Shown: positions 103-40,034 of the stretch, one piece after another
Layout of the letters: the number at the start of each line of letters is the position of its first letter
Numbering within the stretch: position 1 is the stretch's first letter
Source of the DNA: a virus
UHGV virus genome: UHGV-0388909
DNA: 40,034 nt
Reading direction: 5' to 3' (one strand)
Translations under genes and position numbers: made by a program
Notes under the pieces: generated by a model
The model's database searches: none
What the model was told of the DNA's origin: nothing
What the model saw: only the letters and a program-made list of their open reading frames with translations

Positions 103-520
103 GCTTCCACCTGGAGTGTCAACGCGTCCGGCATATCATGGAAGATTCCCTGGTGATGACATATCGTCTCAGTCATCTAAAAAAGCACCTCAGGCAGTAT
201 CAGAGCCAGCAAGAATACCTTCTGTATCGCCGCCAAAAGAAGAATCAGCTAACAGAGTTTCAAGTGGCCGCAAGCAGTGTTTGCGATGCAGAATAAACCT
301 TCCATATGACAAATTCCGGAAATCGTCAAAAAATCCAGATGGATTGACTAAGTGGTGTGCAAGGTGCCTCGATGGCCCAAAGAATACACGCCATATGAAG
401 TGGTGCCCAATTTGTAATGTCCGCAGAAAACGGACCAGCTTTTACCCTAATAATCAAAATGCGGACGGCTTAATGGCATGGTGCAAAACGTGCTGGGACG
501 AGCACAAAGCGAAACGATAG
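23..520 (+). CDS. C-terminal part of a Cys-rich protein with tandem CxxC...WCxxC zinc-ribbon-like repeats; probably continues from 39724-40034 across the circular junction
   Basis: ORF track; residues from position 49 onward are encoded by the same sequence as the end of the window; the annotated N-terminus (23-48) lies in the inverted duplicate and is probably artefactual. Confidence 0.5.
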   Translation: MSGLPHYHKQELAKERQLIQPKPFTAELPPGVSTRPAYHGRFPGDDISSQSSKKAPQAVSEPARIPSVSPPKEESANRVSSGRKQCLRCRINLPYDKFRKSSKNPDGLTKWCARCLDGPKNTRHMKWCPICNVRRKRTSFYPNNQNADGLMAWCKTCWDEHKAKR

Positions 521-542
521 GCCGCTCTTGCGGCCTTTAAAT

Positions 543-800
543 TTACCGGGTTTGTTTTCGTAATTGTTCGGCACAATAGTCGAGATGTGTTTGCAGATCC
601 TGCATAGACATCTGTGAGCTGGTGACGTAGTTAATCAGTGCAGTCAGTTCGGCAAGTGGGCCATCGACATTAAATCCATCCTTATCGAGATCCCGGAGTA
701 ATTTCATCAAGTGCGATCCCTCCACCAGTGACCTGACGCCTCCCGGCGTGTGAATCCTTTCGGTAAATCCGTCTTCCAGTGGATAGTGATACTGCTGCAT
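543..800 (-). CDS. Small SOS-regulated protein (85 aa); candidate antirepressor or induction trigger
   Basis: ATG at 800 preceded by GGAGAA; the longer ORF to 923 would run through the LexA box and promoter; no family recognised. Confidence 0.5.
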   Translation of the reverse strand: MQQYHYPLEDGFTERIHTPGGVRSLVEGSHLMKLLRDLDKDGFNVDGPLAELTALINYVTSSQMSMQDLQTHLDYCAEQLRKQTR

Positions 801-819
801 CTTATCTTCTCCATGCAAT

Positions 820-839
820 AACTGTATGTTTATACAGTA
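820..839. promoter_or_regulatory. LexA (SOS) box, CTGT-N8-ACAG
   Basis: TAACTGTATGTTTATACAGTAA about 20 bp upstream of the ATG at 800; strong match to the E. coli LexA consensus. Confidence 0.75.
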
Positions 840-876
840 ACAAATAATTTGTTTGCTATCCAGCACGTTTTGCAAA

Positions 877-891
877 TTACCCGAAAGGTAA
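877..891. promoter_or_regulatory. TTACC-N5-GGTAA palindrome (TTACCCGAAAGGTAA) in the divergent promoter region between the SOS gene and the tailspike
   Basis: Exact member of the genome-wide palindrome family. Confidence 0.6.
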
Positions 892-995
892 TATCTATTG
901 GTATTTATAGTCTTTTTATCCATATATGGTTTTTCAGGTAATAGAATAACCAGATATGCGGCGCAACGGGTGCTGCGACTATCTGGAGATTTAAC

Positions 996-3900
996 ATGAC
1001 GGTCTCAACCGAAGTTGACCACAACGAATACACCGGTAACGGCGTTACGACATCGTTTCCGTATACTTTTCGAATTTTCAGAAAATCAGACCTGGTTGTT
1101 CAGGTGTCTGACCTGAACGGGAACGTAACAGAATTGGTCCTGGATACTGGTTATACGGTAACTGGGGCGGGCACTTATAGTGGCGGTTCTGTGGTTCTTC
1201 CGTCTCCGCTTGCTACTGGATGGCGAATTACGATAGATCGTGTGCTTGATGTAGTGCAGGACACAGACCTTCGCAATCAGGGAAAATTTTTCCCCGAAGT
1301 GCATGAAGATGCCTTTGACTACCTGACGATGCTGATCCAGCAATGTTTTGGGTGGTTCAGACGTGCATTGATGAAACCATCTTTGCTTGCAAAATATTAC
1401 GATGCAAAGCAAAACAAAATTTCTAACCTTGCAGATCCATCATTTGAGCAGGACGCTGTAAATAATCGCTCAATGCGTAATTATGTCGATGCTGCAATCG
1501 CCGGAGTTGTTGGTGGTTTTGGTTGGTTTATTCAGTATGGTTCTGGGGCTGTGTACCGAACGTTCCAGGATAAAATGCGTGATGCTATTAGCCCCAAAGA
1601 TTTTGGAGCTGTTGGTGATGGTATAAATGACGACTCCACTGCAATAAGCGCGTGCCTTGAAGCCTCATCTCCAGGTTATAAAATTGACGGATTAGGGCTT
1701 ACTTTTAAAGTATCAACTCTTCCGGATGTCAGTCGATTTAAAAATGCTCGTTTTTTATTTGAGAGAATACCGGGCCAGCCTCTTTTTTATGCTTCTGAAG
1801 ATTTTATCCAGGGAGAGTTATTTAAAATTACAGATACACCGTGGTACAACGCCTGGACGCAGGATAAAACGTTTGTATATGACAATGTCATCTATGCGCC
1901 TTTTATGGCTGGAGACCGCCATGGTGTAAATAACCTCCATGTTGCATGGGTTCGCTCAGGAGATGACGGGAAGACCTGGACAACGCCGGAATGGCTTACA
2001 GATTTACATGAAAACTATCCCACAGTTAACTATCACTGCATGAGTATGGGGGTTGTCAGAAATCGCCTTTTTGCTGTAATTGAGACGCGGACCGTGAGAG
2101 GAAATAAACTGCAGGTTGCAGAGTTGTGGGATCGCCCAATGAGTCGCAGCCTTCGCGTTTATGGTGGTATAACGAAAGCAGCAAATCAGCAAGTCGCTTA
2201 TATTCGCATTACTGATCACGGATTATTTGCTGGTGATTTTGTCAACTTCTCAAACTCTGGTGTTACAGGTGTTACCGGGAATATGACGGTGACTACTGTT
2301 ATTGATAAAAATACTTTTACAGTTACGACGCAAAATACTCAGGATGTGGATCAGAATAACGAGGGTAGATACTGGAGTTTTGGCACATCATTTCACTCGT
2401 CACCATGGAGAAAAACCAGTCTTGGAACTATTCCTTCTTTTGTTGACGGAAGCACTCCTGTTACTGAGATTCACAGTTTTGCGACGATTAACGATAACAG
2501 TTTTGCTGTTGGCTACCATAATGGTGATATTGGTCCACGCGAGCTTGGGATACTCTATTTCTCTGATGCTTTCGGTTCTCCTGGTAGCTTTGTTCGCAGA
2601 CGCATACCTGCAGAATATGAGGCGAATGCATCTGAGCCATGTGTAAAATATTATGATGGCATTCTGTATCTGACGACCAGGGGGACATTAAGTACTCGAC
2701 CCGGTAGTTCATTGCACAGAAGCTCTGATTTAGGTACATCATGGAATTCTCTTCGCTTCCCAAATAATGTTCATCACTCAAACCTTCCTTTTGCCAAAGT
2801 TGGCGATGAGCTGATTATTTTTGGCAGTGAGCGCGCATTTGGTGAGTGGGAAGGAGGAGAACCTGATAACCGTTATGCAGGAAATTATCCAAGAACATTT
2901 ATGACCAGAGTTAACGTCAATGAGTGGAGTCTGGATAATGTAGAGTGGGTTAATGTTACTGATCAGATTTATCAGGGCGGAATAGTTAACTCTGCGGTTG
3001 GTGTTGGTTCAGTTTGTATCAAAGACAACTGGCTGTACTACATTTTCGGTGGGGAAGATTTTCTAAACCCATGGAGCATAGGGGATAACAACAGAAAATA
3101 TCCTTATGTTCACGATGGTCACCCGGCTGATTTGTATTGTTTCAGGGTGAAAATTAAACAGGAAGAATTTGTTTCAAGGGATTTTGTCTACGGAGCCACT
3201 CCTAACAGAACGCTTCCTACTTTTATGTCGACGTCAGGCGTGAGGACGGTTCCTGTACCCGTTGATTTCACAGATGATGTTGCCGTCCAGTCACTGACTG
3301 TCCATGCAGGTACATCAGGACAAGTTCGCGCGGAAGTCAAACTTGAGGGTAATTACGCCATTATTGCGAAGAAAGTACCGTCTGATGATGTTACCGCTCA
3401 GAGATTAATCGTTAGCGGCGGTGAAACAACGTCTTCAGCAGATGGTGCAATGATAACGTTGCATGGTTCCAGAAGCAGTACTCCACGTCGCGCGGTATAT
3501 AACGCACTCGAACATCTTTTTGAGAACGGAGATGTTAAACCTTATCTTGATAATGTAAATGCTCTTGGTGGTCCGGGAAACAGGTTCTCGACAGTTTATC
3601 TTGGCTCCAATCCTGTGGTTACCAGTGACGGAACATTAAAGACAGAGCCGGTCTCTCCTGACGAAGCATTGCTGGATGCCTGGGGTGACGTCAGGTATAT
3701 CGCTTATAAATGGCTGAACGCTGTCGCTATAAAGGGGGAAGAAGGGGCGAGGATACATCATGGTGTAATCGCGCAGCAACTTCGTGATGTTCTTATTTCT
3801 CACGGACTCATGGAAGAAGAAAGCACAACATGCCGCTATGCCTTTCTTTGCTATGACGATTATCCCGCAGTATATGATGACGTCATTACTGGCCAAAGGG

Positions 3901-4115
3901 AAATGCCGCTGACTGATAATGACGGGAGCATCATTGTTGATGAGGATGATAATCCAGTGATGGTAATAGAAGACATCATTGAGCGCGTTGAAATAACGCC
4001 AGCAGGATCTAGATGGGGGGTCAGACCTGATCTCTTATTCTATATCGAGGCAGCATGGCAGCGCAGAGAAATGGATAAGATAAAAGAGCGGGTTCAGTCT
4101 CTGGAAGAACGTTAA
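996..4115 (+). CDS. Tailspike/tail fibre: N-terminal anchor domain, central sialidase-like depolymerase, C-terminal intramolecular chaperone (peptidase S74-like)
   Basis: Two Asp-box motifs (SGDDGKTW, SSDLGTSW); beta-helix-type motif DFGAVGDGINDD; C-terminal ...VTSDGTLK...HHGVIAQQL... typical of self-cleaving chaperone domains. Confidence 0.75.
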   Translation: MTVSTEVDHNEYTGNGVTTSFPYTFRIFRKSDLVVQVSDLNGNVTELVLDTGYTVTGAGTYSGGSVVLPSPLATGWRITIDRVLDVVQDTDLRNQGKFFPEVHEDAFDYLTMLIQQCFGWFRRALMKPSLLAKYYDAKQNKISNLADPSFEQDAVNNRSMRNYVDAAIAGVVGGFGWFIQYGSGAVYRTFQDKMRDAISPKDFGAVGDGINDDSTAISACLEASSPGYKIDGLGLTFKVSTLPDVSRFKNARFLFERIPGQPLFYASEDFIQGELFKITDTPWYNAWTQDKTFVYDNVIYAPFMAGDRHGVNNLHVAWVRSGDDGKTWTTPEWLTDLHENYPTVNYHCMSMGVVRNRLFAVIETRTVRGNKLQVAELWDRPMSRSLRVYGGITKAANQQVAYIRITDHGLFAGDFVNFSNSGVTGVTGNMTVTTVIDKNTFTVTTQNTQDVDQNNEGRYWSFGTSFHSSPWRKTSLGTIPSFVDGSTPVTEIHSFATINDNSFAVGYHNGDIGPRELGILYFSDAFGSPGSFVRRRIPAEYEANASEPCVKYYDGILYLTTRGTLSTRPGSSLHRSSDLGTSWNSLRFPNNVHHSNLPFAKVGDELIIFGSERAFGEWEGGEPDNRYAGNYPRTFMTRVNVNEWSLDNVEWVNVTDQIYQGGIVNSAVGVGSVCIKDNWLYYIFGGEDFLNPWSIGDNNRKYPYVHDGHPADLYCFRVKIKQEEFVSRDFVYGATPNRTLPTFMSTSGVRTVPVPVDFTDDVAVQSLTVHAGTSGQVRAEVKLEGNYAIIAKKVPSDDVTAQRLIVSGGETTSSADGAMITLHGSRSSTPRRAVYNALEHLFENGDVKPYLDNVNALGGPGNRFSTVYLGSNPVVTSDGTLKTEPVSPDEALLDAWGDVRYIAYKWLNAVAIKGEEGARIHHGVIAQQLRDVLISHGLMEEESTTCRYAFLCYDDYPAVYDDVITGQREMPLTDNDGSIIVDEDDNPVMVIEDIIERVEITPAGSRWGVRPDLLFYIEAAWQRREMDKIKERVQSLEER

Positions 4116-4121
4116 AAAAAA

Positions 4122-4141
4122 GCCCGCAAAATATTGCGGGT
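4122..4141. terminator. GC hairpin after the tailspike gene, flanked by A8 upstream and an A-rich run downstream
   Basis: Stem cccgcaa/ttgcggg; better oriented as a minus-strand terminator (U8 on that strand). Confidence 0.4.
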
Positions 4142-4421
4142 ATCAAAAACGGAGTTGGTGAAAAGTTATCTTTGAATTCTATCATGAATCAGTACGTATT
4201 TTAAATACATGTTCAGGTTTATTACACCATAGCATTATTAAATACAAAATTAAGTCTATGGTTCCTGTACAACTGCCCCCACTCTGCTGGCTCGTTCTGT
4301 AAAATCATTAGTACTTTTATTGAGATATATGATATGGAACAATAATGATTCATATATGGTTTACTATGCGGGTTTAGTCATCAATAATTGACTGGCTTAT
4401 AGATAGTAAACAGGAGAAAGT

Positions 4422-4826
4422 ATGTCTGCTCAAGTAACAAGTGAGCAATTAAATCAGTTGCTTAGTTTTGGTTCTCTTGCTGCAGTTATTGCAGGTGTCC
4501 CTCCGGAGGTTGCTTTAGGGGCTTTGGCTGGGGCGGTAATTTTTGTTACCTCTGCAGTAGAGTACCCCATCCGTCGCCGGGTGCTCCTGTCGATGCTCAG
4601 CTTTCTTTGCGGCCTTCTCTTTTACAAACCAGCAGCATCAATTCTTATCGGCATAGCCAGCCTGATCCCTACCATCACGCAGGACTCTTTTGAAAAAGGG
4701 ATTGTTTTCTCTGCAGGCGCATTCGTGTCAGCAATTGTCGCTGTGCGTATTGGTATATGGCTCTATCACCGTTCCGATAATCCACGCGAGTTAATTCCGG
4801 GGAGAAAAGACGATGGTAACGCATGA
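4422..4826 (+). CDS. Holin-like membrane protein (multiple predicted TM segments)
   Basis: Hydrophobic segments; immediately upstream of the endolysin; good Shine-Dalgarno. Confidence 0.55.
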   Translation: MSAQVTSEQLNQLLSFGSLAAVIAGVPPEVALGALAGAVIFVTSAVEYPIRRRVLLSMLSFLCGLLFYKPAASILIGIASLIPTITQDSFEKGIVFSAGAFVSAIVAVRIGIWLYHRSDNPRELIPGRKDDGNA

Positions 4827-5121
4827 GTTTTTTTTGCTTATCACTAATGCAGTTATTTGCACTGGCATAGCAATTCGCGTTGTCACATTCCGGCGTAACG
4901 GCTCTCAACATCGAAGGTGGGGAGGATGGCTTGCTTATTTCCTGATTGTTGCTGCGGCCAGTATTCCTGTTCGAGTCGCCTATGCAATCTGGTTACGTAC
5001 GCCAATGGCTGTGGATTTATCTGAGGTCATTATCAACGCTGTCATGCTGGCTGCGGTTATTAAAACGCGCGGTAACGTCGTTCAAATTTTTAAAGTATCG
5101 AGGTCTAAACATGGAGATTAA
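4813..5121 (+). CDS. Second small membrane protein of the lysis cassette (holin/antiholin-like)
   Basis: About three hydrophobic segments; overlaps both neighbours; GGAG 8 nt before the ATG. Confidence 0.5.
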
Positions 5122-5740
5122 ACAATTCCAGCGAGCTGCTGGTATCAGCGAGGCACTGGCCGCACGCTGGTTCTCGCATATAACTTCTGCGATGAAAGAG
5201 TTTGGTATCAGCAAAGCAGAAGATCAGGCAATGTTTATTGCTCAAGTCGGGCATGAGTCTGGGGGCTTCACCAGGTTGCAGGAGAATTTCAACTACAGTG
5301 TCAGCGGACTGGCTAACTTCGTTCGGGCTGGGCGTCTCACTCAGGGGCAGGCTAATGCACTGGGGCGCCGTGCTGGTGAACCACCATTGCCACTTGAGCG
5401 CCAGCGCGCGATCGCAAATCTGGTATACAGCAAACGCATGGGGAACAATGCCCCTGGTGATGGCTGGAATTACCGAGGGCGCGGACTTATCCAGATTACC
5501 GGTTTGAATAACTATCGTGATTGCGGAAACGGTCTGAAGGTTGACCTGCTGGAGAGCCCTGAACTGCTGGCGCAGGACGGATATGCGGCTCGTAGCGCGG
5601 CGTGGTTCTTCGCCAGCAAAGGATGCATGAAGTATACCGGCGATATTGCACGTGTAACTCTGATTATCAATGGTGGCCGGAACGGCATCGACGACCGGCG
5701 AGCGCGGTACATCACTGCCAGTAAGGTGCTGGCGGTATGA
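5111..5740 (+). CDS. Endolysin, glycoside hydrolase family 19-like
   Basis: Motif [12 protein letters not shown] and overall GH19-type pattern; start ATG at 5111 with GAGG upstream; the ORF-track start at 4946 is probably an upstream extension. Confidence 0.75.
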
Positions 5741-6219
5741 TCTGGGCATTCGTAAAAGCATACTGGAAACAGTTTCTTATCGTGGCAGTGCTTGCTGTTC
5801 TGGTCATATCAGGAGTGGTTGCCTGGAATATACACGGCAGTCGCCAGTACGATGCCGGGTATGCTCAGGCGGAAGAAGACCGCAAAGCCGAAGAAGACAA
5901 AGTTCGTCAGTACTACGAACAGGAGAAAGTGACCAATGAACGTGAAGCTCAGCAGAGGATCGACCAGGCGCGCAATGATGCTCTTGATGCTGCCGCTAGC
6001 GCTGGCCGGTTGCAGCAACAACTCTTTGCCATCCGTGAGCAGCTCAGGCAGTATAACGCCATTGTCGGCGCTGGGTCGTCAGCCGCAGACACCGGAGTTT
6101 TGCTTGCCGACGTGTTCAGCAAATCTCTCGAGAGAAACAGACAACTGGCAGAGTATGCTGACCGGGCAGCCGAAGCCGGAAGAGTCTGCGAAAAACAGTA
6201 CGACACTTTGACCAGATAG
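5737..6219 (+). CDS. i-spanin (Rz-like): N-terminal TM, coiled-coil periplasmic domain
   Basis: ATGA overlap with the endolysin stop; TM helix followed by a charged, Q/E/R-rich region. Confidence 0.7.
5936..6211 (+). CDS. o-spanin (Rz1-like) lipoprotein embedded in the +1 frame of Rz
   Basis: Signal sequence with lipobox LAGC; entirely nested in Rz; start ambiguous (5936 or 5975). Confidence 0.65.
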   Translation: MNVKLSRGSTRRAMMLLMLPLALAGCSNNSLPSVSSSGSITPLSALGRQPQTPEFCLPTCSANLSRETDNWQSMLTGQPKPEESAKNSTTL

Positions 6220-6239
6220 CATGGCATTTTTCATGGTAC

Positions 6240-6510
6240 TGATTTCCGGTGACGGTATATAAAACGGTACGGGAAAAATTGAGATTTGGAAAAATGTTAT
6301 CACTCAATTGGTTATGGTTATCGTAAATAATTGAGTGGGAATGATTAACAGCTAACTCATAGCAACTCATTCCTATTCAGATACTAATTTAACCCTCTGT
6401 TTTTACAGAGGGTTTTTGTTTTTATGTATTCATTTCTATTCACTCTACACCATATTTTTCGTCGGTACAGGTGACGGTATTACCTTAAAGGTATACTCTC
6501 ATACCGTCAT
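6240..6510. other. Candidate attP region with repeated arm-like sequences
   Basis: Non-coding stretch between the lysis genes and int; GGTGACGGTAT at 6249-6259 and 6470-6480, inverted partner ATACCGTC at 6501-6508, degenerate TTACC palindrome at 6480-6494. Confidence 0.35.
6393..6423 (+). terminator. Rho-independent terminator after the lysis cassette
   Basis: Stem ccctctg/cagaggg followed by TTTTTGTTTTT. Confidence 0.75.
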
Positions 6511-6536
6511 GAAAATGGTTTCTATACGGGTGAATT

Positions 6537-7793
6537 GTGCTTACCGATACAAAATTAAAAAACCTCAAGCCGCAGGACAAACTGTACAAGGTCTCCGATC
6601 GTGACGGGCTGTATGTAGCTGTGCTTACGTCAGGCACGGTCTCGTTTCGCTATGACTACCGTATCAACGGTCGCCGCGAAACACTGGTAATCGGGCAGTA
6701 TGGGCGTGACGGTATCAGCCTGGCAGAAGCGCGAGAAGAACTGATTGCTGCAAAGAAGCTGCTTAAAGCAGGCCAGTCACCGGCTGCGGCTAAACGTGAC
6801 GGTATTAAAAAGATTCGTGGTGCCGAGACGTTTGCGGTACATACCGACAGTTATATGAAACACGTCATCCTGGCTGACAGTACCCGCGCAATGAAGCAGG
6901 CGGTGATCGACCGTGACATACTTCCGGTTCTTGGCAACAAAATGATGGCTGAAATTACCACATCAATGGTTCGTGATTTGTGTGACCGGATTGTCGAACG
7001 CGGTGGTCGGGCAACAGCAGTACAGGCCAGGGAGATCATCAGCAGCGTATACCGTCACGCCAATGACCGTGGTCATGGTTTGTTTAATCCTGCGGCTGAC
7101 ATTAAACCTTCGTCTATCGCCATATTTAAACCACGAGAGCGAACACTGACACCAGAAGAAATTGGCCTGTTCTTCCGCACGCTGGATGCCATTGGTGCTA
7201 TGGGCACTATGAAAATGGCTTTAAAGCTGGTGCTTATCACCATGGTTCGTAAGGGAGAATTCACCAATGCAACGTGGGATGAAATAGATTTTAAAAAATG
7301 GACATGGACAATTCCTTCAGACCGCATGAAGGGAAGTCGGGCGCACGTTATTTACCTGCCTAAACAGGCACAGGATATATTAGTCGGGTTGCAGATGTGC
7401 GCTGGTGGAAGTGAATATCTGGTTCCTGGTCGTTACAATTTCCGGAAGCCATTATCTAATGCCGCGCTGAACTCTCTGATCGACAGAACGGTGAAAATAA
7501 TAAATGAAGATGGTGAGCATATTCAGGATTTTACTGTACATGATATGCGCCGTACAGCCAGTACATTGTTGCATGAGGCTGGTTATCCTTCAGACTGGAT
7601 TGAAAAGGCTCTGGCACACGAGCAGAAAGGTGTGCGCGCCGTATATAACAAAGCGGAATACGCCAGACAGCGCGCCTACATGTTGCAGCAGTGGGCCGAT
7701 ATGATTGATTCCTGGATTAACGGGGAGCATACGGATCTGATTCCGTTCTCCCCGTCGAAGTTTGAGAAGTGGATGGAAGACAGTAATAAATAA
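6537..7793 (+). CDS. int: Tyrosine site-specific integrase
   Basis: GTG start; N-terminal arm-binding-type region; C-terminal HDMRRT...Y catalytic signature. Confidence 0.85.
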   Translation: MLTDTKLKNLKPQDKLYKVSDRDGLYVAVLTSGTVSFRYDYRINGRRETLVIGQYGRDGISLAEAREELIAAKKLLKAGQSPAAAKRDGIKKIRGAETFAVHTDSYMKHVILADSTRAMKQAVIDRDILPVLGNKMMAEITTSMVRDLCDRIVERGGRATAVQAREIISSVYRHANDRGHGLFNPAADIKPSSIAIFKPRERTLTPEEIGLFFRTLDAIGAMGTMKMALKLVLITMVRKGEFTNATWDEIDFKKWTWTIPSDRMKGSRAHVIYLPKQAQDILVGLQMCAGGSEYLVPGRYNFRKPLSNAALNSLIDRTVKIINEDGEHIQDFTVHDMRRTASTLLHEAGYPSDWIEKALAHEQKGVRAVYNKAEYARQRAYMLQQWADMIDSWINGEHTDLIPFSPSKFEKWMEDSNK

Positions 7794-7795
7794 TT

Positions 7796-8455
7796 CTATC
7801 CTTCCTGGACTTTGGTAAGCGTCAGATTTCCGCAGAACACTGCGCCGGTGTCGATGTACATTTGGTTTGCATACACCAGTGGGTGATGTGCTGGCGTATG
7901 ACCGAAGATGAACAAATCGGCACCGGTTATCTCCGAGACAATACCGTCCTGCGCGTCGCTAACCCGCTCACGATTCCATATCACCATTTCTTCCGGTACT
8001 GGCTTATCGAATGCGTATTCGTTGTGCGGGTAGTCTGCGTGGCAGATGACGACCTTCTTATTGCCGGTAACCAGTTCGATAATCATCGGGAGGTTGGTAA
8101 CCTTTGGCAGAAGGTATTTGAGTTGCACATCCTGCTCAGAATCAAGTTGGTGCCACCATCCACCGCCGTTTGACATCCAATGTCCGAAACTTCCGCCGTT
8201 GACCAGTGCATCCAGCATCATCTGCTCATGGTTGCCACGAACAGCTCGGAACCACGGCATAGTAATCAAATCCAGGCATTCGACGTTTTCAGCGCCGCGG
8301 TCAACAAGGTCACCAACGGAAATAAGCAAATCGCGCGCCGGGTCGAATGAAACTTTGTCGAGTTCGTTCATCAGCAGCGTGTAGCACCCATGCAGATCGC
8401 CGACGACGAAGATATTGCACCAGTCAGCGCCATTGATGCGTTGATATAGGTTCAT
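7796..8455 (-). CDS. Ser/Thr protein phosphatase (calcineurin-like metallophosphoesterase)
   Basis: GDLHG, GDLVDRG and GNHE motifs; start ATG at 8455. Confidence 0.8.
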
Positions 8456-9102
8456 GCTGCACGCTCCCGCCCCTGGTTGTCTGTTGGTGACAGCGGAGCA
8501 TTGCTGAATGCATTTGTTAATCCGCCGATATCCAACGCGTATCCAGGGTGTAGTTGCACTGCCGGGTCTTCGCACTGATTACCCCAAACATCGAAGCCAT
8601 GAGACGTCTGGCGGGCGAACAGTTCAATGCGAGAAACATCGCCTAATAATTGCACAAGTTTTTCACGAACGATATCTGGCTTTCTTGAATGCTCAAGCCG
8701 CGGTGCGGTAAATGACTGAACGATCCCTGCATTAATGCGCGTAGGTAGTTTTCCCTTTACCGCAAACAGGCAATCTTCACTATTGGCGCGAGTCATGTGT
8801 CCCATACCCATAACCAGTTTATCTGGTTGTCGACTACCACATTTTATCCACGTGAAGCCCTTCATCGTCATCAGACGGAATCCCCAGGCTTCAACAACTT
8901 TTAGTGCTTCGAGTGGTTGTGTTGGCACCCACCACATGGCCAACAGACAGTTTTCATCGGCCAAATCCCACACAGGAAGGCGGCAGATATCCAGCACACT
9001 CATAACCGGATATTTAAAACCGGCACCGCGATTACCATCTGCGGCTTTGTCCCGGTATACCCAGGGTGGATCTGCATAGATTAGTGTGTATTTCTTAGTC
9101 AT
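8452..9102 (-). CDS. MT-A70-family DNA N6-adenine methyltransferase
   Basis: IYADPPW motif; ATG at 9102 with GGGGTGG upstream. Confidence 0.75.
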
Positions 9103-9120
9103 AAACCACCCCACAACATC

Positions 9121-9393
9121 CTATGCCGCTATAGTCGCCACGGCGAAGGCCGTTCCTTTTGTGATACATTGGTCCCTGCGAACCGCGATCCTTGCACGTT
9201 CAACATCACCAGAAGCAACATCCATACACTGAAGCCAAAGGTGAGCGGCAATGCGGAATTGCCCTTTTTTCTCTCTTTCAATCGCGCGTTTTTCGATCTC
9301 TATCGCCGCAGGAGTAACGGCGACAATCTTTGACGGACTGCGCATTGAAACCTTATTCATGTGATATTTTTCAAGTCGGCTTAACTTTCTCAC
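9121..9393 (-). CDS. Hypothetical early protein
   Basis: ORF track only; start may be internal (about 9360). Confidence 0.4.
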   Translation of the reverse strand: MRKLSRLEKYHMNKVSMRSPSKIVAVTPAAIEIEKRAIEREKKGQFRIAAHLWLQCMDVASGDVERARIAVRRDQCITKGTAFAVATIAA

Positions 9394-9502
9394 TTAATCC
9401 AACCCTCTCTGAAAATTAATGCCAGCAGATAAAGCCATGCTGAAACAGAGGCCAGGAATAAGTACCATCCTGACCATTTGCTCCAGTGCCTTAGCAGCGC
9501 AC

Positions 9503-9751
9503 TCATGCAGCGTTGCTCACGGGACGATATACACGTTGCTGAACAGGAGGCTTTTTACCCTGGAACTCTGCCGGGCTTGCTGCCTGACGTTCATCAAGCC
9601 AACGCTCAACTTCATCACGGTTCCATGCGCAGCGTTTATCGGTGATATACCAGCGTTTAGGAAATTCCCCTGCGCGCTCCATACGGTCGATAGTGCTCCA
9701 TGACAGTGGCACCACCGCCAGGAGTTCTTTCTTACCTAATGCACCTTTCAT
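9503..9751 (-). CDS. Excisionase / AlpA-like HTH protein
   Basis: Winged-helix-like pattern ...LSWSTIDRMERAGEFPKRWYI...W..DEVERWL. Confidence 0.55.
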   Translation of the reverse strand: MKGALGKKELLAVVPLSWSTIDRMERAGEFPKRWYITDKRCAWNRDEVERWLDERQAASPAEFQGKKPPVQQRVYRPVSNAA

Positions 9752-9800
9752 GAATACCTCTCTTGGTTGCAGTGCGGCGCACGTGGCGCCGCGGTGGTGG

Positions 9801-11856: not shown

Positions 11857-11858
11857 TA

Positions 11859-12011
11859 TCAGCCCTCCCATATCTCGTTATCGTTGGCCACATCGCGAGC
11901 TTCTTTGCTGACGAAAGCCCACTTAATGCCTTCCTGTAAGGTGCGGAACTTCCAGCTCATGAATCCGCATGCAGTAACGCAGTACCAACCGTTGATGATT
12001 TTCCACTGCAT
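11859..12011 (-). CDS. Small ORF (50 aa), first gene of the leftward early operon
   Basis: Own translation; below ORF-track size cutoff; no homology claim. Confidence 0.3.
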   Translation of the reverse strand: MQWKIINGWYCVTACGFMSWKFRTLQEGIKWAFVSKEARDVANDNEIWEG

Positions 12012-12164: not shown

Positions 12165-12749
12165 TTATTGTTTGTTTTTTTCGTTCTGGTTGATGACAAA
12201 TTCAATGTAACTTTCGATCTTTGCTTTCTCGGTTTCGGGTAACAATGCGTAGCGTGAGCGGTCATAGTTGATAGTCGCAGGGTCGTGCGGGTGAATCAGT
12301 AGTTCATATCCGTGACGCCCGAATGCGGATGCAACATTCTCCAGGGTGGAAATGGAAACGCTGACCTCATTGTTTAACAGGCGGCTGATTGTCACCTGGG
12401 CGACGCCGGATGCGCGGTGAAGTTTTCCCTGTGTTGAAAGGTCGCGGCTTTCGCTCATCCAGCGTTCCAGGTTGTGAGCCGCCAGCTGACCTATATCGCT
12501 CGGGCCGACAGGCTGAAAACCCTCCTGAGAAAGCGAACGATCAATATCAAGCCAGTTACGGGGTTTATTGGCGGCCGCTTCAATTTTTCGTGCAACCTGG
12601 TCGCCGATAACCTTCTTGCCAAGAGCCCAGCGGTTTACCAGATTTGCCTGAGTTCCAAGTTTTTCTGCCATCCGCGTCTGAACACCATTGAATTCACGGT
12701 CGATCAAGTCGTTGAGATTTTGCCTGCGGACGTCCTGGATACTTTTCAT
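12165..12749 (-). CDS. Immunity repressor candidate: two HTH domains, no LexA-like peptidase domain
   Basis: HTH-like segments near residues 20-45 and 110-140; no GDSM/Ser-Lys peptidase motifs; divergent from the Cro-like gene. Confidence 0.6.
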   Translation of the reverse strand: MKSIQDVRRQNLNDLIDREFNGVQTRMAEKLGTQANLVNRWALGKKVIGDQVARKIEAAANKPRNWLDIDRSLSQEGFQPVGPSDIGQLAAHNLERWMSESRDLSTQGKLHRASGVAQVTISRLLNNEVSVSISTLENVASAFGRHGYELLIHPHDPATINYDRSRYALLPETEKAKIESYIEFVINQNEKNKQ

Positions 12750-20994: not shown

Positions 20995-21071
20995 TGGCGT
21001 GGCATGCAGGATTCGAACCTGCGACCAACCGCTTAGAAGGCGGTTGCTCTGTCCAACTGAGCTAATGCCAC
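20995..21071 (-). tRNA. tRNA-Arg, anticodon UCU
   Basis: Minus-strand 77 nt GTGGCATTAGCTCAGTTGGACAGAGCAACCGCCTTCTAAGCGGTTGGTCGCAGGTTCGAATCCTGCATGCCACGCCA folds as a cloverleaf with encoded CCA. Confidence 0.85.
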
Positions 21072-36534: not shown

Positions 36535-36535
36535 G

Positions 36536-37387
36536 ATGAAAAAAATAAATTTGTTTTTTGGCATAGTGCTTTCAATAGTCTCTGTAAATCCTACAGCTGC
36601 CAGTTCATTGCAATGCAATAAGGATAACTTTGATGCATGCAAAACGTGTGAACAATTATCAAAGGCTATCGACTTAAAAGAACCTAATCGTGGCGATTAC
36701 TATAGAGGGGCTTTATGGAATGGGCTTTACGCCTCTTATGTAATTAATTGCCCTGTGGTTGCTGAGAAGTTACTGAGCCATGGTGCTATACCATCATATG
36801 GCGGATATATGGGGTCTATGGGGGCGGTTCTGACAGGAAAATGGCCTCATAACAATGAATCAATAAATCTTTCATGGGCAGATTTGCTTATAAAACATGG
36901 ATTTGATGTTAATAGGCATACGGGGAATTATAAATCAGCTACTGAAGTATGGGCTATAGATAAAAAACAGATTGAATATAAGTCAGTTTTTGACAAGTTA
37001 ATTCAATCCAGCGAAGTAAAACCACTCGATCCTTCAAGAAATTTAGAATGGTGTGCGTCTGAAGGGTATCGCTCAGTTGTCGTTTATTCCCTTAACTCAT
37101 GTATAGAAAATGCTATAAAACGTTTGGATGATGGTGTTTCTTCAGCGTCTGATATTTCATCAGCAGCCGTAAATTCCTGTACTAGCGATGTAGAAAATTT
37201 CAATAAGCATTTGGCATGCAAAGCAGCTGTTAAAGAAAACTCTGATAAAGAGAGAAGCGACGTTTACCAGTTATTAACCAGTGATAGTCAAATGAATAAA
37301 AATGTTATTGATATGCTGAAGGAAAGAAATATTGAAACGGTTCTTGAATTTAGAGCTGAAAATCGATCAGCGAAAACTGCACAGTGA
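36536..37387 (+). CDS. AT-rich moron: secreted protein with possible ankyrin-like repeats
   Basis: N-terminal signal peptide; visibly lower GC than neighbours; motifs AEKLLSHGA and ADLLIKHGFDVN. Confidence 0.45.
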   Translation: MKKINLFFGIVLSIVSVNPTAASSLQCNKDNFDACKTCEQLSKAIDLKEPNRGDYYRGALWNGLYASYVINCPVVAEKLLSHGAIPSYGGYMGSMGAVLTGKWPHNNESINLSWADLLIKHGFDVNRHTGNYKSATEVWAIDKKQIEYKSVFDKLIQSSEVKPLDPSRNLEWCASEGYRSVVVYSLNSCIENAIKRLDDGVSSASDISSAAVNSCTSDVENFNKHLACKAAVKENSDKERSDVYQLLTSDSQMNKNVIDMLKERNIETVLEFRAENRSAKTAQ

Positions 37388-37416
37388 TCAAACAGGCCGC
37401 TTTCGCGGCCTTGTTT

Positions 37417-37578
37417 TTAACGAATGCCACCGCCGCCCGGGCGGGAATCCGCAGAACGCCCACCGCAGCGGGAGCCGTCAGCAGCAGTATCGCTGTCGTG
37501 CTGACAACGACCGGCAAAGGCCTGAGTTGAAGCTACCAGAGACAACAAAACGAACAGTGCAGCAAATGCTTTTTTCAT
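37417..37578 (-). CDS. Small secreted peptide (about 53 aa with signal peptide)
   Basis: Signal sequence then Gly/Arg/Cys-rich tail; start at internal ATG 37578. Confidence 0.35.
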   Translation of the reverse strand: MKKAFAALFVLLSLVASTQAFAGRCQHDSDTAADGSRCGGRSADSRPGGGGIR

Positions 37579-37659
37579 TGTGAAATTTCCATCTATAAAC
37601 CACCTCAATGTGGCGTCAATGAGTGTAGCACTGACTTTTGTTTCGTCCATAAAAAACTA

Positions 37660-38172
37660 CTATGCAGGCTTTTTGGATTTGTACGAATAATCCCACGGAT
37701 AAACATTTCTACTAAGTGGAGCTGTATTCGTTCGTTCATGAAATAATTTTGTGAAATTCAATACGGAATCCATCCAAACTTTTGCGTTAGCTTTGGTGTG
37801 TGCGGGCGGGTCCCAATAAGCTAGTAAGGCTGCATCTCTTATTTCATTGACTGCATATATGAGATATGCGTTACTGGTTGGTTTTGGCCTGTAATTTCCT
37901 TGTTCATCAATCAATCCATATGACCACTCATCCCAACACTGTTCAGTACATGAGTATGAATATGATGCATATTCACCAATATTGACATGAACCTTTCTGA
38001 GATGGAAGCCTAATACTTCCTCTGGTCTTTCAAAAAGAGTATCTTTTCCCAGATCAGGATGATGACCATGACGCCAGTGTTGTTTAAAAGCATCTTTTAG
38101 CGAAATCAGAAAGTCATCAGTTTTAAACTCACCAGTAGGTATAACCTTCCCGCTATACTCACTCAAAAACAT
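37660..38172 (-). CDS. YafO-like toxin candidate
   Basis: Recalled resemblance to E. coli YafO blocks; overlaps the upstream gene. Confidence 0.4.
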   Translation of the reverse strand: MFLSEYSGKVIPTGEFKTDDFLISLKDAFKQHWRHGHHPDLGKDTLFERPEEVLGFHLRKVHVNIGEYASYSYSCTEQCWDEWSYGLIDEQGNYRPKPTSNAYLIYAVNEIRDAALLAYWDPPAHTKANAKVWMDSVLNFTKLFHERTNTAPLSRNVYPWDYSYKSKKPA

Positions 38173-38485
38173 CGAATTCCTCTTCCTTCATATGCGTTTC
38201 TAATGAGTTAAGCTGGCGGAAAGATATCTCTTTTGATTCTGCAGATGAGAGCTTTTTTATCCGCTTTATATTCTTTGTGATAGGAATAGACATTGTATGC
38301 ACATCAGCGGATGCTCTTGGCTTTGTGCTGATAAAAATATGGCGCAATGCCGCATTTTCACTATTGAACGAGCCAATAGCTGATTTACGTGCTACAACCT
38401 TACCAGTAAAAATACGACTCTTGCTACGCTTTGCATGAGTTCCGCTTCTTACCGGACCTCTCATCACGAATCCAAGTTTTGTCAT
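38159..38485 (-). CDS. Basic small protein with acidic C-terminal tail; candidate antitoxin of the YafO-like gene
   Basis: Upstream and overlapping the toxin candidate by 14 nt; not recognisably Phd/YefM-like. Confidence 0.35.
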   Translation of the reverse strand: MTKLGFVMRGPVRSGTHAKRSKSRIFTGKVVARKSAIGSFNSENAALRHIFISTKPRASADVHTMSIPITKNIKRIKKLSSAESKEISFRQLNSLETHMKEEEFDVFE

Positions 38486-38527
38486 CTTTAATCTCCGGTA
38501 AGTTACAGGTATAAAATAAAAACAGGT

Positions 38528-38542
38528 TTACCTTTAAGGTAA
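38528..38542. promoter_or_regulatory. Perfect palindrome TTACCTTTAAGGTAA over the promoter of the toxin-antitoxin-like operon
   Basis: Same palindrome family; identical to the copy at 39689-39703. Confidence 0.55.
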
Positions 38543-38577
38543 TAGTACGCTATTCACCCACAGTCTGCAATCTGTAC

Positions 38578-38606
38578 AGAATTATTTAAAGGCACATCCC
38601 TGTGCC
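38578..38606 (-). terminator. Terminator after the antirepressor gene
   Basis: Hairpin ggcaca-ggga-tgtgcc on the minus strand followed by U-rich sequence. Confidence 0.55.
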
Positions 38607-38615
38607 GCCGTTCTG

Positions 38616-39326
38616 TCAGAAGAACCCTGCCTTGTCGTTGATGTACTCCGCGTGCGTCTGGATATCACGCAGGCATTTGCTCACACCAACGATGTAGCAG
38701 AACATGGTGGTCAGCTCCGCCGCCGCGCCCGATACGTCGTGCCCGTCTTCCTGTAACTGGTTCAGCAAATTCATCAGCAGTGAGTTCTCCGTCAGGCCGA
38801 GAACACCAGACGGCGAATGAATCAGGCTACGGTAGCCGGGCTTCAGTGGGGCGCTGTAGGTTTTGTTCTCTATCTTCATCGCCTGCATTACTGCTGACGC
38901 CGTGGCGTTGGCTACCTGGTCGGCAACCATCTTTATGCGTTCTTCCTGCGGGAGCGAGTTTTTAATGTAGCTTCCGGTGCGGCGGATCTGAGGAAGAACC
39001 TCACCTGTAACCCATTTACGAAAGCGGTAGGGGATAGTGCCTGGTGTCACTGCGTCGCGGCAGCGGAGGATCAGTGTGTAGAGGCCTGACTCGGAGATGA
39101 TGTTGATCTCTTTTACTCGGCTGTCAAAAATTGCACGATGTTCATGCCCTATGTTGAACATAGACCTTTCATCATCATCCAGTTTTTCAAGTGCTTGGGT
39201 GACGTTTTGGATACGCAGCGCACTACAAACGTCTTGGGCTACAAACCATGGTTGGCCATCGATAATGATGGAACGGATAGGGTTAACAGATTCAAATTTG
39301 AAGATGGAAGTTTGAGCATTAGCCAT
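38616..39326 (-). CDS. Antirepressor with Bro-N domain
   Basis: N-terminal ...IIIDGQPWFVAQDVCSALRI... typical of Bro-N/antirepressor proteins; ATG at 39326 with GGAG; the ORF-track start at 39341 is GTG inside the RBS. Confidence 0.7.
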   Translation of the reverse strand: MANAQTSIFKFESVNPIRSIIIDGQPWFVAQDVCSALRIQNVTQALEKLDDDERSMFNIGHEHRAIFDSRVKEINIISESGLYTLILRCRDAVTPGTIPYRFRKWVTGEVLPQIRRTGSYIKNSLPQEERIKMVADQVANATASAVMQAMKIENKTYSAPLKPGYRSLIHSPSGVLGLTENSLLMNLLNQLQEDGHDVSGAAAELTTMFCYIVGVSKCLRDIQTHAEYINDKAGFF

Positions 39327-39341
39327 GGTGGTTATCTCCAC

Positions 39342-39620
39342 TTAGTGATTTTAATCACCACCGCAACGCCAATTACTGGTGGTGAACTGGACAAGGTTGG
39401 CGTACCGGCCTAAGTGGTACCGGCGTCCTTTCGGACCCCTGCCCAGCCCACCATAATTCGGATATAGCTGTGCTTAACGCATAAAAAAACCACGTCTGGC
39501 GTGGTATGCGCCACTTAGTAACCCGGGACGCCAATCCCGGCACTGGATTTTGCCAGTGCCCGATTACTATGGCACAAGAGGAGTGCGATGTAAATTTACC
39601 GCAAAGGTAATGATAAACGC
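39342..39620 (-). promoter_or_regulatory. Structured 5' leader of the antirepressor gene with three 8-nt elements, an internal terminator hairpin and a palindrome operator (39596-39610)
   Basis: CCACTTAG at 39338-39345 and 39511-39518; complementary CTAAGTGG at 39410-39417; hairpin ccacg-n5-cgtgg plus U7 at 39482-39504. Confidence 0.5.
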
Positions 39621-39688
39621 GAAGAAATATTAAAATCAACCGTATTTGGTTGATTGCGTTTAACGCTTGATCACCTGAAAGCAAGATA

Positions 39689-39703
39689 TTACCTTTAAGG
39701 TAA
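39689..39703. promoter_or_regulatory. Perfect palindrome TTACCTTTAAGGTAA just upstream of the RBS of the junction-spanning gene
   Basis: Same palindrome family. Confidence 0.55.
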
Positions 39704-39723
39704 TGTTATTGTGAGGAAAAGCA

Positions 39724-40034
39724 ATGGAAGTTTTCTGGATAGTTGTTGGTGTGGTTGCGGTGATTATTTACGTTATCAACCAGAACAAGACTAAGATCTC
39801 TGATCGTACGGTCGTTAATCAGAACAAAACGATAAAGACCGAAGATGGGGAGGTAACGATTAGTCGTACACAGGTGATAGAACACACATCTACTCAGTTT
39901 CAAAAAACTGGAGGTAACGCGCCTGATATTTCCGTACCTCCTGCTTATGATAGTGCGGTAATCCAGACATATTATAAACAGCAGGAGTTAGCAAAAGAGA
40001 GGCAACTGATTCAGCCAAAGCCGTTTACAGCTGA
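39724..40034 (+). CDS. N-terminal part (TM anchor plus linker) of the Cys-rich protein continuing at 103-520
   Basis: ATG at 39724 with GAGGA upstream; hydrophobic N-terminus; reading frame continues through the terminal overlap into ORF 23-520. Confidence 0.5.
   Translation, partial: MEVFWIVVGVVAVIIYVINQNKTKISDRTVVNQNKTIKTEDGEVTISRTQVIEHTSTQFQKTGGNAPDISVPPAYDSAVIQTYYKQQELAKERQLIQPKPFTA

What the first reader, a model, noticed from the sequence alone, without database searches (positions are those of the whole stretch)
520..39724. Junction-spanning membrane protein with duplicated CxxC...DGL..WCxxC zinc-ribbon-like repeats
Joining 39724-40034 to 103-520 gives a protein of about 242 aa: N-terminal TM helix, Pro/Ser-rich linker, then two repeats (CLRC...DGLTKWCARC and CPIC...DGLMAWCKTC). 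I recognise no family. It sits between the antirepressor region and the SOS-controlled gene, directly after a palindrome operator.
Basis: seen in the sequence. Interest (0 to 1): 0.5.

Follow-up and report, generated by a model that had tools for sequence, protein, structure and literature searches.

The report
Membrane-tethered zinc-finger protein beside phage immunity genes
The gene split across the ends of this circular phage contig is real and encodes an uncharacterised inner-membrane protein that holds two DNA-enzyme-type zinc fingers in the cytoplasm. In many temperate phages it sits next to the repressor or antirepressor genes, which makes it a good but untested candidate for a new superinfection-exclusion or defence function.

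Summary
Window bases 1-102 are a contig-end artefact. Joining 39724-40034 to 103-520 gives an intact 729-nt, 242-aa gene. That gene is present as one piece at 100% identity in complete E. coli chromosomes and in 129 of 5426 complete genomes.

The protein has:
- an N-terminal transmembrane helix;
- a conserved beta-hairpin next to the membrane;
- a disordered tether of about 100 aa;
- two tandem Cys4 treble-clef zinc fingers with net charge +15.

The fingers do belong to a family. They are Stc1-type fingers (PF12898, just under threshold here). The same module is repeated in phage and giant-virus HNH and endonuclease VII proteins. The catalytic residues of those enzymes are absent here.

The whole protein matches PHROG 6762, whose function is unknown. 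Every source calls it a hypothetical protein.

The gene is an ~870-bp moron cassette that phiV10 lacks. Its promoter's -10 element lies inside a prophage-repressor operator.

In 20 of 24 distant viral loci the homologue lies 14-25 nt downstream of cI. In epsilon15-like phages it lies in the antirepressor island.

My best guess at function is interception of incoming DNA or the ejection machinery at the inner face of the membrane. This is inferred, with probability about 0.35. Interest is moderate.

The parts
1..102 (.). Contig-end artefact, not part of the phage genome. Bases 1-47 are an inverted copy of sequence near the other end. Bases 48-102 are the 55-nt duplicate of 39980-40034.
   Evidence: Searches show exact matches. 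Complete chromosomes carry the gene without this insertion.
39724..40034 (+). 5' part of the gene: codons 1-103 plus 2 nt of codon 104.
103..520 (+). 3' part of the gene: third base of codon 104 to the stop codon TAG at 518-520.
39667..39695 (+). Putative sigma-70 promoter: -35 TTGATC (39667-39672), 17-nt spacer, -10 TACCTT (39690-39695).
   Evidence: The same TTGAYC-N17-TACCTT arrangement is seen in Serratia, Citrobacter/Enterobacter-type and other diverged loci. It was not found by the stringent consensus scan, so it is inferred.
39688..39704 (.). Operator palindrome ATTACCTTTAAGGTAAT, overlapping the -10 element.
   Evidence: The motif occurs 15 times in the window against 0.84 expected. 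Sites flank the repressor gene. The same motif is annotated as a repressor-binding site in the epsilon15 RefSeq record.
39713..39717 (+). Shine-Dalgarno sequence GAGGA, 6 nt before the ATG.
39730..39783 (+). Transmembrane helix, residues 3-20 (VFWIVVGVVAVIIYVINQ). The N-terminus is predicted outside and the rest in the cytoplasm.
   Evidence: Hydropathy 2.3; E2 lies before the helix and K22, K24 and R28 after it. AF2 predicts a helix at 2-21 with pLDDT about 90. Topology is inferred from the positive-inside rule and from the need of Cys4 fingers for a reducing compartment.
39808..39879 (+). Conserved beta-hairpin next to the membrane, residues 29-52. T39 and G42 are invariant in the closer homologues.
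39889..40034 (+). First part of the disordered P/S/Q/T-rich tether, residues 56-104.
   Evidence: pLDDT 46-64. Length and sequence vary among homologues.
103..265 (+). Second part of the tether, residues 104-158.
272..376 (+). Zinc finger 1, residues 161-195: KQCLRCRINLPYDKFRKSSKNPDGLTKWCARCLDG.
   Evidence: pLDDT is above 90 in the full-length model and about 87-90 in the domain model. Stc1-type by Pfam and by its relatives. Resembles the N-terminal finger of PacI.
398..502 (+). Zinc finger 2, residues 203-237: KWCPICNVRRKRTSFYPNNQNADGLMAWCKTCWDE.
   Evidence: Matches the zinc-finger regions of phage endonuclease VII, HNH and Lar-like PHROGs.
519..536 (+). GC-rich hairpin AGGCCGCTCTTGCGGCCT followed by TTTAAATTT. 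It is the terminator of the cassette, shared tail-to-tail with the convergent LexA-box gene.
39611..40034 (.). Left part of the ~870-bp moron cassette that phiV10 lacks.
   Evidence: Homology with phiV10 stops just after the palindrome at 39595-39611.
103..548 (.). Right part of the cassette.
   Evidence: Homology with phiV10 resumes at about window 549. Cassette GC is 43.5% against 48.5% for the genome.
39375..39572 (-). Context only. This is the leader of the divergent Bro-N antirepressor operon: C4 antisense RNA (39375-39458), isrK-like RNA (39483-39559) and the a1/b1 target (39520-39572).
   Evidence: Rfam scores: 66.0 bits (gathering cutoff 45), 67.7 bits (cutoff 50) and 44.1 bits (cutoff 46.7, so just under).
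543..837 (-). Context only. Convergent 85-aa gene (543-800) with a LexA box at 822-837. Its product is about 40% identical to the C-terminal domain of the Bro-N antirepressor.

Best explanation
What it is (shown). This is a real accessory gene, a 'moron', of an epsilon15/phiV10-like (Uetakevirus) temperate E. coli phage. It encodes a single-pass inner-membrane protein. The protein consists of an N-terminal TM helix, a conserved beta-hairpin next to the membrane, a flexible tether of about 100 residues, and two tandem, very basic Cys4 treble-clef zinc fingers of the Stc1 type. That finger type is the module phage HNH and endonuclease VII enzymes carry in repeated copies.

Topology (inferred). 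The N-terminus faces outward and the rest of the protein, including the fingers, is in the cytoplasm.

Regulation and linkage (shown as sequence pattern; function inferred). The cassette has its own promoter, and the -10 element lies inside an operator of the prophage repressor. Across Gammaproteobacteria the family is physically tied to the immunity module. It is the second gene of a cI-ZnF operon in lambda-like prophages, and it lies in the antirepressor island between ejection-protein genes and the tailspike gene in epsilon15-like phages.

Mechanism (inferred, my commitment). The fingers patrol the cytoplasmic face of the inner membrane on their tether. There they bind nucleic acid, or a DNA-associated or ejection protein, as it emerges. 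This blocks productive entry or use of incoming foreign DNA. That would be a superinfection-exclusion or defence function coupled to the phage's own immunity circuit.
For: Gene and protein:
- The gene is real, intact and conserved.
- Architecture comes from alignments of 29 and 45 homologues and two AF2 models.
- The finger domain has net charge +15 and pI 10.

Finger type:
- Pfam Stc1 scores 23.8 bits against a cutoff of 24.8.
- A profile search finds 2745 cluster representatives.
- Of 93 relatives without a TM helix, 44 pass Stc1, 15 have HNH and 11 have Endonuclease_7.

Moron status and regulation:
- phiV10 lacks the cassette. It has its own terminator and lower GC.
- The operator overlies the -10 element, and this is conserved in diverged loci.
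- The operator's identity rests.

Linkage to immunity genes:
- A CI-type (HTH+S24) gene ends 14-25 nt upstream on the same strand in 20 of 24 distant IMG/VR loci.
- The same is seen in phiARM81mr, Acinetobacter and Marinobacterium. The arrangement is convergent in Oceanobacter and Pseudoalteromonas, and the gene follows an Arc-like gene in another Acinetobacter.
- Epsilon15-like phages of many genera keep it in the Bro-N / LexA-antirepressor island.
- Full-length homologues were found only in temperate phages.

Precedents:
- P22 sieA lies between ejection gene 16 and tailspike gene 9, together with mnt. [quoted passage not shown]
- Kiwa shows that membrane-coupled binding of ejected phage DNA is a working defence principle (PMC11785009).
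Against: - There is no experimental datum for any family member. Every source calls it hypothetical.
- PADLOC and NCBIfam give no match.
- DNA binding is inferred only from charge and from domain partners. In S. pombe Stc1 the homologous fingers bind a protein, Ago1 (my own knowledge).
- The two genomic settings predict different timing. In a cI-ZnF operon the gene should be expressed in lysogens. An operator over the -10 element in this phage should silence it in lysogens and express it after infection or induction.
- A non-specific DNA binder at the membrane would also grab the host chromosome.
- Position next to immunity genes fits exclusion, but it equally fits a regulatory role.
Confidence: 0.35

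Rival explanations
1. It is a component of the immunity switch. The membrane-tethered fingers would sequester or present a regulator at the membrane. Candidates are the repressor, an antirepressor such as the Bro-N or LexA-controlled 85-aa protein, or operator DNA. This would tune establishment or maintenance of lysogeny.
For: The gene is persistently adjacent to cI, with 14-25 nt gaps, in several lineages whose CI proteins are only distantly related. In epsilon15-like phages it lies next to antirepressor genes. Its promoter is wired to the repressor operator. Stc1-type fingers are protein-binding in their founding member (my own knowledge).
Against: The linked repressors are of unrelated types: cleavable HTH+S24 CI versus a double-HTH repressor without S24. 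A common direct partner is therefore unlikely. Close relatives such as phiV10 and epsilon15 manage their switch without the gene.
Confidence: 0.15
2. It anchors the phage's own DNA to the membrane early after infection or induction. This would organise replication, integration or packaging, functionally like phi29 p16.7.
For: The overall layout matches p16.7: an N-terminal TM segment plus a cytoplasmic nucleic-acid-binding domain (p16.7 is described in PMC4974454). The operator over the -10 element predicts expression when repressor is absent. PRE-type transcription of cI operons would also express it early.
Against: The gene is dispensable, since sister phages lack it. It is not linked to replication genes in any locus examined. 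It shares no sequence or fold with p16.7.
Confidence: 0.12
3. It is a host-takeover or toxicity factor. For example, it could tether the nucleoid to the membrane, or bind a host protein, to arrest division or another host process during lytic growth.
For: It has a ZipA-like layout: TM helix, long flexible linker, cytoplasmic globular domain. It is highly basic. It lies in an island with a YafO-like toxin-antitoxin pair that carries the same operator.
Against: Constitutive co-transcription with cI in many prophages argues against a toxic product. No similarity to known division inhibitors was found.
Confidence: 0.08
4. It is a membrane-bound nuclease. Each repeat would be a working beta-beta-alpha-Me (HNH/EndoVII-like) active site that cuts incoming DNA.
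For: The best structural neighbours are beta-beta-alpha-Me nucleases, Hpy99I and PacI. PHROG hits are to endonuclease VII and HNH families.
Against: The matches cover only the accessory fingers of those enzymes. In relatives such as P0111 the fingers (10-89) are separate from the Endonuclease_7 domain (184-255). The window protein gives no HNH or Endonuclease_7 Pfam hit. There is no conserved His/Asn catalytic pattern inside either finger.
Confidence: 0.03
5. It is a chance ORF created by misjoining the contig ends.
For: The contig start does carry an assembly artefact.
Against: The identical ORF is uninterrupted in complete chromosomes, in a GenBank phage and in dozens of IMG/VR contigs. Homologues down to about 25% identity keep all eight Cys.
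Confidence: 0.005

Closest known systems
Stc1-type tandem zinc finger (Pfam PF12898), the repeated accessory finger of phage and giant-virus HNH and endonuclease VII proteins
   Same: It shares the C-x2-C ... F ... DG-x3-4-C-x2-C treble-clef unit in tandem copies. Relatives found with the finger profile pass the Stc1 threshold (44 of 93) and carry HNH or Endonuclease_7 domains. The N-terminal finger of PacI aligns over 34 residues at 1.1 A rmsd.
   Different: There is no nuclease domain. There are exactly two fingers, fused to a TM helix, hairpin and tether. The window protein itself scores 1 bit under Pfam's cutoff.
P22 SieA (superinfection exclusion, inner membrane)
   Same: Both are temperate podophage accessory genes that lie between the ejection-protein genes and the tailspike gene, beside the immI/antirepressor genes. 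Both are inner-membrane proteins (PMC10883804).
   Different: SieA is 162-164 aa with three TM segments and no zinc fingers. No sequence similarity was detected. Exclusion by the present protein is untested.
Genes co-transcribed with cI, such as lambda rexA/rexB
   Same: The position is the same: immediately downstream of the repressor gene in the same operon.
   Different: The proteins are unrelated. In this window the gene is not next to the repressor gene but has its own operator-controlled promoter.
phi29 p16.7
   Same: Both have an N-terminal membrane anchor and a cytoplasmic nucleic-acid-binding domain, and both are phage-encoded (PMC4974454).
   Different: The DNA-binding fold is different, there is no sequence similarity, and the phage type and genomic setting differ.
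Kiwa (KwaA/KwaB)
   Same: The concept is shared: a membrane-coupled protein binds ejected phage DNA (PMC11785009).
   Different: Kiwa is a two-protein host system with a DUF4868 DNA binder. There is no homology (PADLOC negative).
PHROG 6762
   Same: Full-length match over 242 of 242 positions, E = 1.4e-148.
   Different: The family has no assigned function, so membership says nothing about mechanism.

Membership tests
PHROG 6762 (unknown function) | Full-length profile match | tested here: met
   E = 1.4e-148, residues 1-242 against profile positions 1-242.
Stc1 domain (PF12898) | Score at or above Pfam's gathering threshold (24.8 bits) | tested here: not met
   21.5 bits for the whole protein and 23.8 bits for residues 155-242. 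This is borderline. 44 of 93 relatives retrieved with the finger profile do pass.
Stc1 domain (PF12898) | Tandem fingers with eight conserved Cys in CxxC...CxxC pairs | tested here: met
   C163, C166, C189, C192, C205, C208, C231 and C234 are invariant in 45 sequences. Both repeats are modelled as treble-clef fingers.
Stc1 domain (PF12898) | Zinc actually bound | not testable with these tools
   This needs metal analysis of purified protein.
HNH / endonuclease VII (beta-beta-alpha-Me nucleases) | Catalytic His (DH or HNH motif) and metal-binding Asn/His between the Cys pairs, with a Pfam HNH or Endonuclease_7 match | tested here: not met
P22 SieA family | Protein of about 163 aa with three TM segments and sequence similarity to one of the three SieA types | tested here: not met
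   There is one TM segment. No PHROG or Pfam relation was found. SieA features are taken from PMC10883804.
Lar restriction-alleviation protein (PF14354) | Pfam match | tested here: not met
   No Pfam hit. There is only a partial PHROG 5558 match, restricted to finger 2.
Moron (autonomous accessory cassette in a phage genome) | Absent from close relatives at the same site; own promoter and terminator; deviating composition | tested here: met
   phiV10 lacks the 870 bp. Promoter and operator. Terminator. GC is 43.5% against 48.5%. Promoter activity itself is not tested.
Known anti-phage defence proteins (PADLOC 2.0) | Profile match | tested here: not met
   No family matched at E <= 0.1.

The most novel reading that the evidence does not exclude
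A single small phage protein forms a new class of exclusion or defence factor. It would be a membrane-tethered, sequence-independent 'DNA interceptor'. Its Stc1-type zinc fingers, held within a few tens of nanometres of the inner membrane, would capture foreign DNA or the cytoplasmic tip of the ejection conduit as it enters. Temperate phages of many Gammaproteobacteria would have wired it directly to their repressor circuit, either as a cI-ZnF operon or through a repressor operator.
Probability: 0.25. Interest if true: 0.7.

Novelty: new variant of a known kind. Interest (0 to 1): 0.45.

Why it matters
If the protein excludes or disables incoming DNA from the cytoplasmic side of the membrane, it would add a mechanistically new, one-gene superinfection-exclusion or defence type. 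[quoted passage not shown] It would also give the first function for Stc1-type fingers in bacteria and phages.

The family is common: 2.4% of complete E. coli genomes carry it, along with many Aeromonas, Serratia, Providencia and Acinetobacter prophages. It is small and easy to test. Its tight linkage to cI gives a clear prediction about expression. Even without the functional claim, the result corrects an annotation gap, because TL-2011b lists the gene only as a misc_feature.

Tried and rejected
- Foldseek of the full-length model against the PDB gave only noise, because the disordered tether dominates. I re-modelled the finger domain alone.
- The afdb50 library was unavailable.
- Sequence searches of the PDB gave nothing significant. 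The best hits were E = 0.88 for the single sequence and E = 0.043 for the profile. PacI scored E = 0.23, which is only suggestive.
- A search with the N-terminal 64 residues alone returned only fragments of the same protein, so there is no evidence that the TM+hairpin module occurs with other C-terminal domains.
- PADLOC and NCBIfam returned nothing.
- A genome-contig scan with the broad alignment A5 failed for lack of a conserved stretch. The narrower alignment A6 worked.
- The longer TL-2011b misc_feature, which starts 360 nt upstream, suggested a longer or disrupted gene. The upstream frame is full of stops, and that DNA in fact encodes the antirepressor leader RNAs on the other strand.
The operator identity therefore rests on the epsilon15 RefSeq feature table and on site positions.
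- The stringent sigma-70 scan did not report the proposed promoter. The promoter rests on cross-lineage conservation only.
Full report
**1. The observation**

The window is a circularly assembled phage genome that was cut inside a gene. Bases 1-55 are the exact reverse complement of 39938-39992, and bases 48-102 repeat 39980-40034. The first 47 bases are therefore an inverted-duplication artefact and the next 55 are a k-mer overlap.

The join is correct:
- The 729 nt occur as one uninterrupted piece at 100% identity in complete E. coli chromosomes, for example NZ_CP115386.1, where PGAP calls it hypothetical protein WP_021518473.1.
- The gene is present in 129 of 5426 complete E. coli genomes.
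- It is contiguous at 97% identity in phage TL-2011b, where it is annotated only as a misc_feature.
- All 44 close IMG/VR homologues are intact. Their amino-acid changes almost entirely avoid the finger region.
- The exact protein is on record on 521 contigs, always as 'hypothetical'.

**2. Anatomy of the protein**

Alignments of 29 and then 45 homologues, down to about 25% identity, and two AlphaFold models give a consistent picture:
- Residues 3-20 form a strongly hydrophobic helix (hydropathy 2.3).
- Residues 29-52 form a conserved beta-hairpin. T39 and G42 are invariant in the closer set.
- Residues 56-158 form a low-confidence P/S/Q/T-rich segment whose length and sequence vary freely.
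- Residues 161-237 form two tandem repeats, each C-x2-C-x22-C-x2-C. All eight Cys are invariant. Confidence is high: pLDDT is above 90 for these residues in the full-length model and averages 87 in the domain-only model.

Each repeat is a treble-clef finger: a zinc knuckle in a beta-hairpin, with the second CxxC at the start of a short helix. The finger domain carries 21 K+R against 6 D+E, giving net +15 and pI 10.

With E2 before the helix and K22, K24 and R28 after it, and with Cys4 sites needing a reducing compartment, the likely topology is N-out/C-in. This is an inference, not a test.

**3. What the fingers are**

Pfam gives only Stc1 (PF12898), one bit under its threshold: 23.8 against 24.8. 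A profile of the finger domain finds 2745 cluster representatives in the 1.84-billion-protein library. About 40 of the top 150 share the whole TM-hairpin-tether-two-finger layout. Most of the rest are soluble arrays of 3-12 such fingers.

Of 93 non-membrane relatives, 44 pass the Stc1 threshold, 15 carry HNH and 11 carry Endonuclease_7 domains. In those proteins the fingers are separate from the catalytic domain. In P0111, for example, the fingers cover residues 10-89 and the nuclease domain covers 184-255.

PHROG hits to endonuclease VII, HNH, primase and Lar-like families all fall on the fingers. Structure searches agree:
- BFVD finds HNH, EndoVII and 'Stc1 domain' proteins of phages and giant viruses.

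The window protein has no nuclease domain and no conserved His/Asn pattern within the fingers. I therefore read the fingers as a binding module. DNA is the most plausible ligand given the charge and the domain partners. A protein ligand is not excluded, because Stc1 itself binds Argonaute (my own knowledge).

**4. The cassette and its control**

The window is an epsilon15/phiV10-like Uetakevirus. Most sequenced relatives match only up to about window 39600-39620. An alignment with phiV10 shows homology stopping just after the palindrome at 39595-39611 and resuming at about 549.

The gene therefore lies on an ~870-bp insertion with its own terminator (519-536) and lower GC (43.5% against 48.5%). 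This makes it a classical moron.

The palindrome ATTACCTTTAAGGTAAT (39688-39704) ends 19 nt upstream of the ATG. This ATTACC-N5-GGTAAT motif occurs 15 times in the window against 0.84 expected, almost always between genes. Paired copies lie on both sides of the 194-aa double-HTH repressor gene, which has no S24 domain. The epsilon15 RefSeq record annotates the same motif as 'protein_bind: repressor, lysogeny'.

In this window and in diverged prophages of Serratia, Superficieibacter, Citrobacter/Enterobacter-type and others, the gene is preceded by TTGAYC-N17-TACCTT. The -10 element lies inside the left half of the operator. I infer a weak sigma-70 promoter that the repressor occludes. The consensus scanner did not report it, so this remains a prediction.

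The rest of the 380-bp upstream spacer does not belong to this gene. On the opposite strand it encodes a P1-like C4 antisense RNA and an isrK-like RNA, which lead into the Bro-N antirepressor gene.

**5. Genomic company**

In epsilon15-like prophages of many enterobacterial genera the gene always lies in the island between the last ejection or tail genes and the tailspike gene. It sits there with a Bro-N or KilA-N antirepressor and the small LexA-box gene. Order and orientation vary.

Outside that group the pattern is sharper:
- In Aeromonas phage phiARM81mr the homologue starts 18 nt after the stop codon of a CI (HTH+S24) repressor gene and is followed by a terminator.
- The same co-directional arrangement is seen in Acinetobacter and Marinobacterium prophages.
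- A tail-to-tail arrangement with cI is seen in Oceanobacter and Pseudoalteromonas.
- The gene lies downstream of an Arc-like gene in another Acinetobacter.
- In 24 distant IMG/VR loci, 20 have a CI-like gene ending 14-25 nt upstream on the same strand. These fall into several sequence groups whose CI proteins are only distantly related.

Full-length homologues were found only in temperate phages. The family is thus an accessory of the immunity module.

**6. Mechanism**

The following points are shown:
- The gene is real.
- The protein architecture is as described.
- The fingers are of the Stc1 type.
- The gene is a moron cassette.
- An operator overlaps the proposed -10 element.
- The gene is linked to cI or to antirepressor genes.

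The following points are inferred:
- The membrane topology.
- Zinc binding.
- DNA binding.
- Repressor control of the promoter.

My committed reading, at about 0.35, is superinfection exclusion or defence acting from the cytoplasmic face of the inner membrane. The tethered basic fingers would bind incoming DNA, or the cytoplasmic end of the ejection machinery, and prevent its productive use. Three lines support this:
- The location matches that of classical exclusion genes. Lambda rexAB lies after cI. P22 sieA lies between ejection gene 16 and tailspike gene 9, beside mnt (PMC10883804).
- The gene is restricted to temperate phages.
- Kiwa shows that membrane-coupled capture of ejected DNA works as a defence (PMC11785009).

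The main weakness is timing. cI-ZnF operons predict expression in lysogens, whereas the operator over the -10 element here predicts silence in lysogens and expression after infection or induction. The two can be reconciled if the protein acts early after infection, or if exclusion is useful in both states, but this is unresolved.

The rival readings are:
- a regulator-sequestering part of the switch (0.15);
- anchoring of the phage's own DNA, like phi29 p16.7 (0.12; PMC4974454);
- host takeover (0.08);
- a membrane nuclease (0.03).

**7. Comparison and novelty**

The protein is a member of PHROG 6762, whose function is unknown. It carries Stc1-type fingers, borderline by Pfam's own cutoff. It is not an HNH or EndoVII nuclease, not a SieA, not Lar, and not any PADLOC or NCBIfam family.

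A known finger module in a new membrane-tethered, immunity-linked architecture is best filed as a new variant of a known kind.

Interest is moderate (0.45). There is nothing paradoxical here. It is a widespread, compact, easily testable candidate for a new exclusion mechanism, with a clear operon-level prediction.

Noticed in passing
window 1-102: Contig-end artefact. Bases 1-55 are the reverse complement of 39938-39992, and bases 48-102 duplicate 39980-40034. The true circular genome is about 39,932 bp. Any ORF or repeat called in 1-102 (for example ORF 23..520) is spurious.
   Followed up: yes
window 877, 6480, 12031, 12093, 12805, 12853, 13190, 15129, 15191, 18229, 18247, 21394, 38528, 39596, 39689: The palindrome ATTACC-N5-GGTAAT occurs 15 times (11 perfect) against 0.84 expected. 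The sites lie in front of most transcription units, including late and accessory ones. The same motif is annotated as a repressor-binding site in epsilon15. This looks like a genome-wide repressor regulon rather than just OL/OR. Sites are often paired 48-62 bp apart.
   Followed up: partly
window 39375-39572 (-): A P1/P7-type immI leader lies upstream of the Bro-N antirepressor. It contains C4 antisense RNA (66 bits), isrK-like RNA (67.7 bits) and the a1/b1 target (44.1 bits, just under cutoff). The antirepressor is thus probably under antisense-RNA control as well as operator control.
   Followed up: partly
window 543-837 (-): The 85-aa gene behind a perfect LexA box (CTGTATGTTTATACAG) is about 40% identical to the C-terminal domain of the neighbouring 241-aa Bro-N antirepressor (PHROG 450/1760). 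It is probably a small SOS-induced antirepressor for the repressor, which has no S24 cleavage domain.
   Followed up: partly
window 12165-12749 (-): The prophage repressor has two HTH_3 domains and no S24 peptidase domain. This is consistent with induction through antirepressors rather than RecA-mediated cleavage.
   Followed up: partly
window 37660-38485 (-), operator at 38528: A gene pair with a weak YafO-toxin match (170 aa) and a 108-aa partner lies in the same accessory island. It is preceded by the identical 15-mer TTACCTTTAAGGTAA that precedes the zinc-finger gene.
   Followed up: no
L001 (TL-2011b NC_019445) 4641-5729: The reference phage record annotates this intact gene only as a misc_feature, 'similar to hypothetical protein'. 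That feature also extends 360 nt too far upstream, over the C4/isrK RNA region.
   Followed up: yes
L093 (Marinobacterium sp.) 5338-7307: Here the operon reads cI, zinc-finger gene, then a secreted SNase-type nuclease with an Excalibur domain. This may be a hint that the neighbourhood collects anti-DNA functions.
   Followed up: no
L006 (Buttiauxella gaviniae) 2119-9685: A homologue sits in a small integrative element with a CI-like repressor, two serine recombinases and a YagK/YfjJ-type protein. It is not in a full prophage, so this may be a satellite-like element carrying the gene as cargo.
   Followed up: no
window 20995-21071 (-): tRNA-Arg (anticodon TCT) is encoded in the phage genome.
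   Followed up: no
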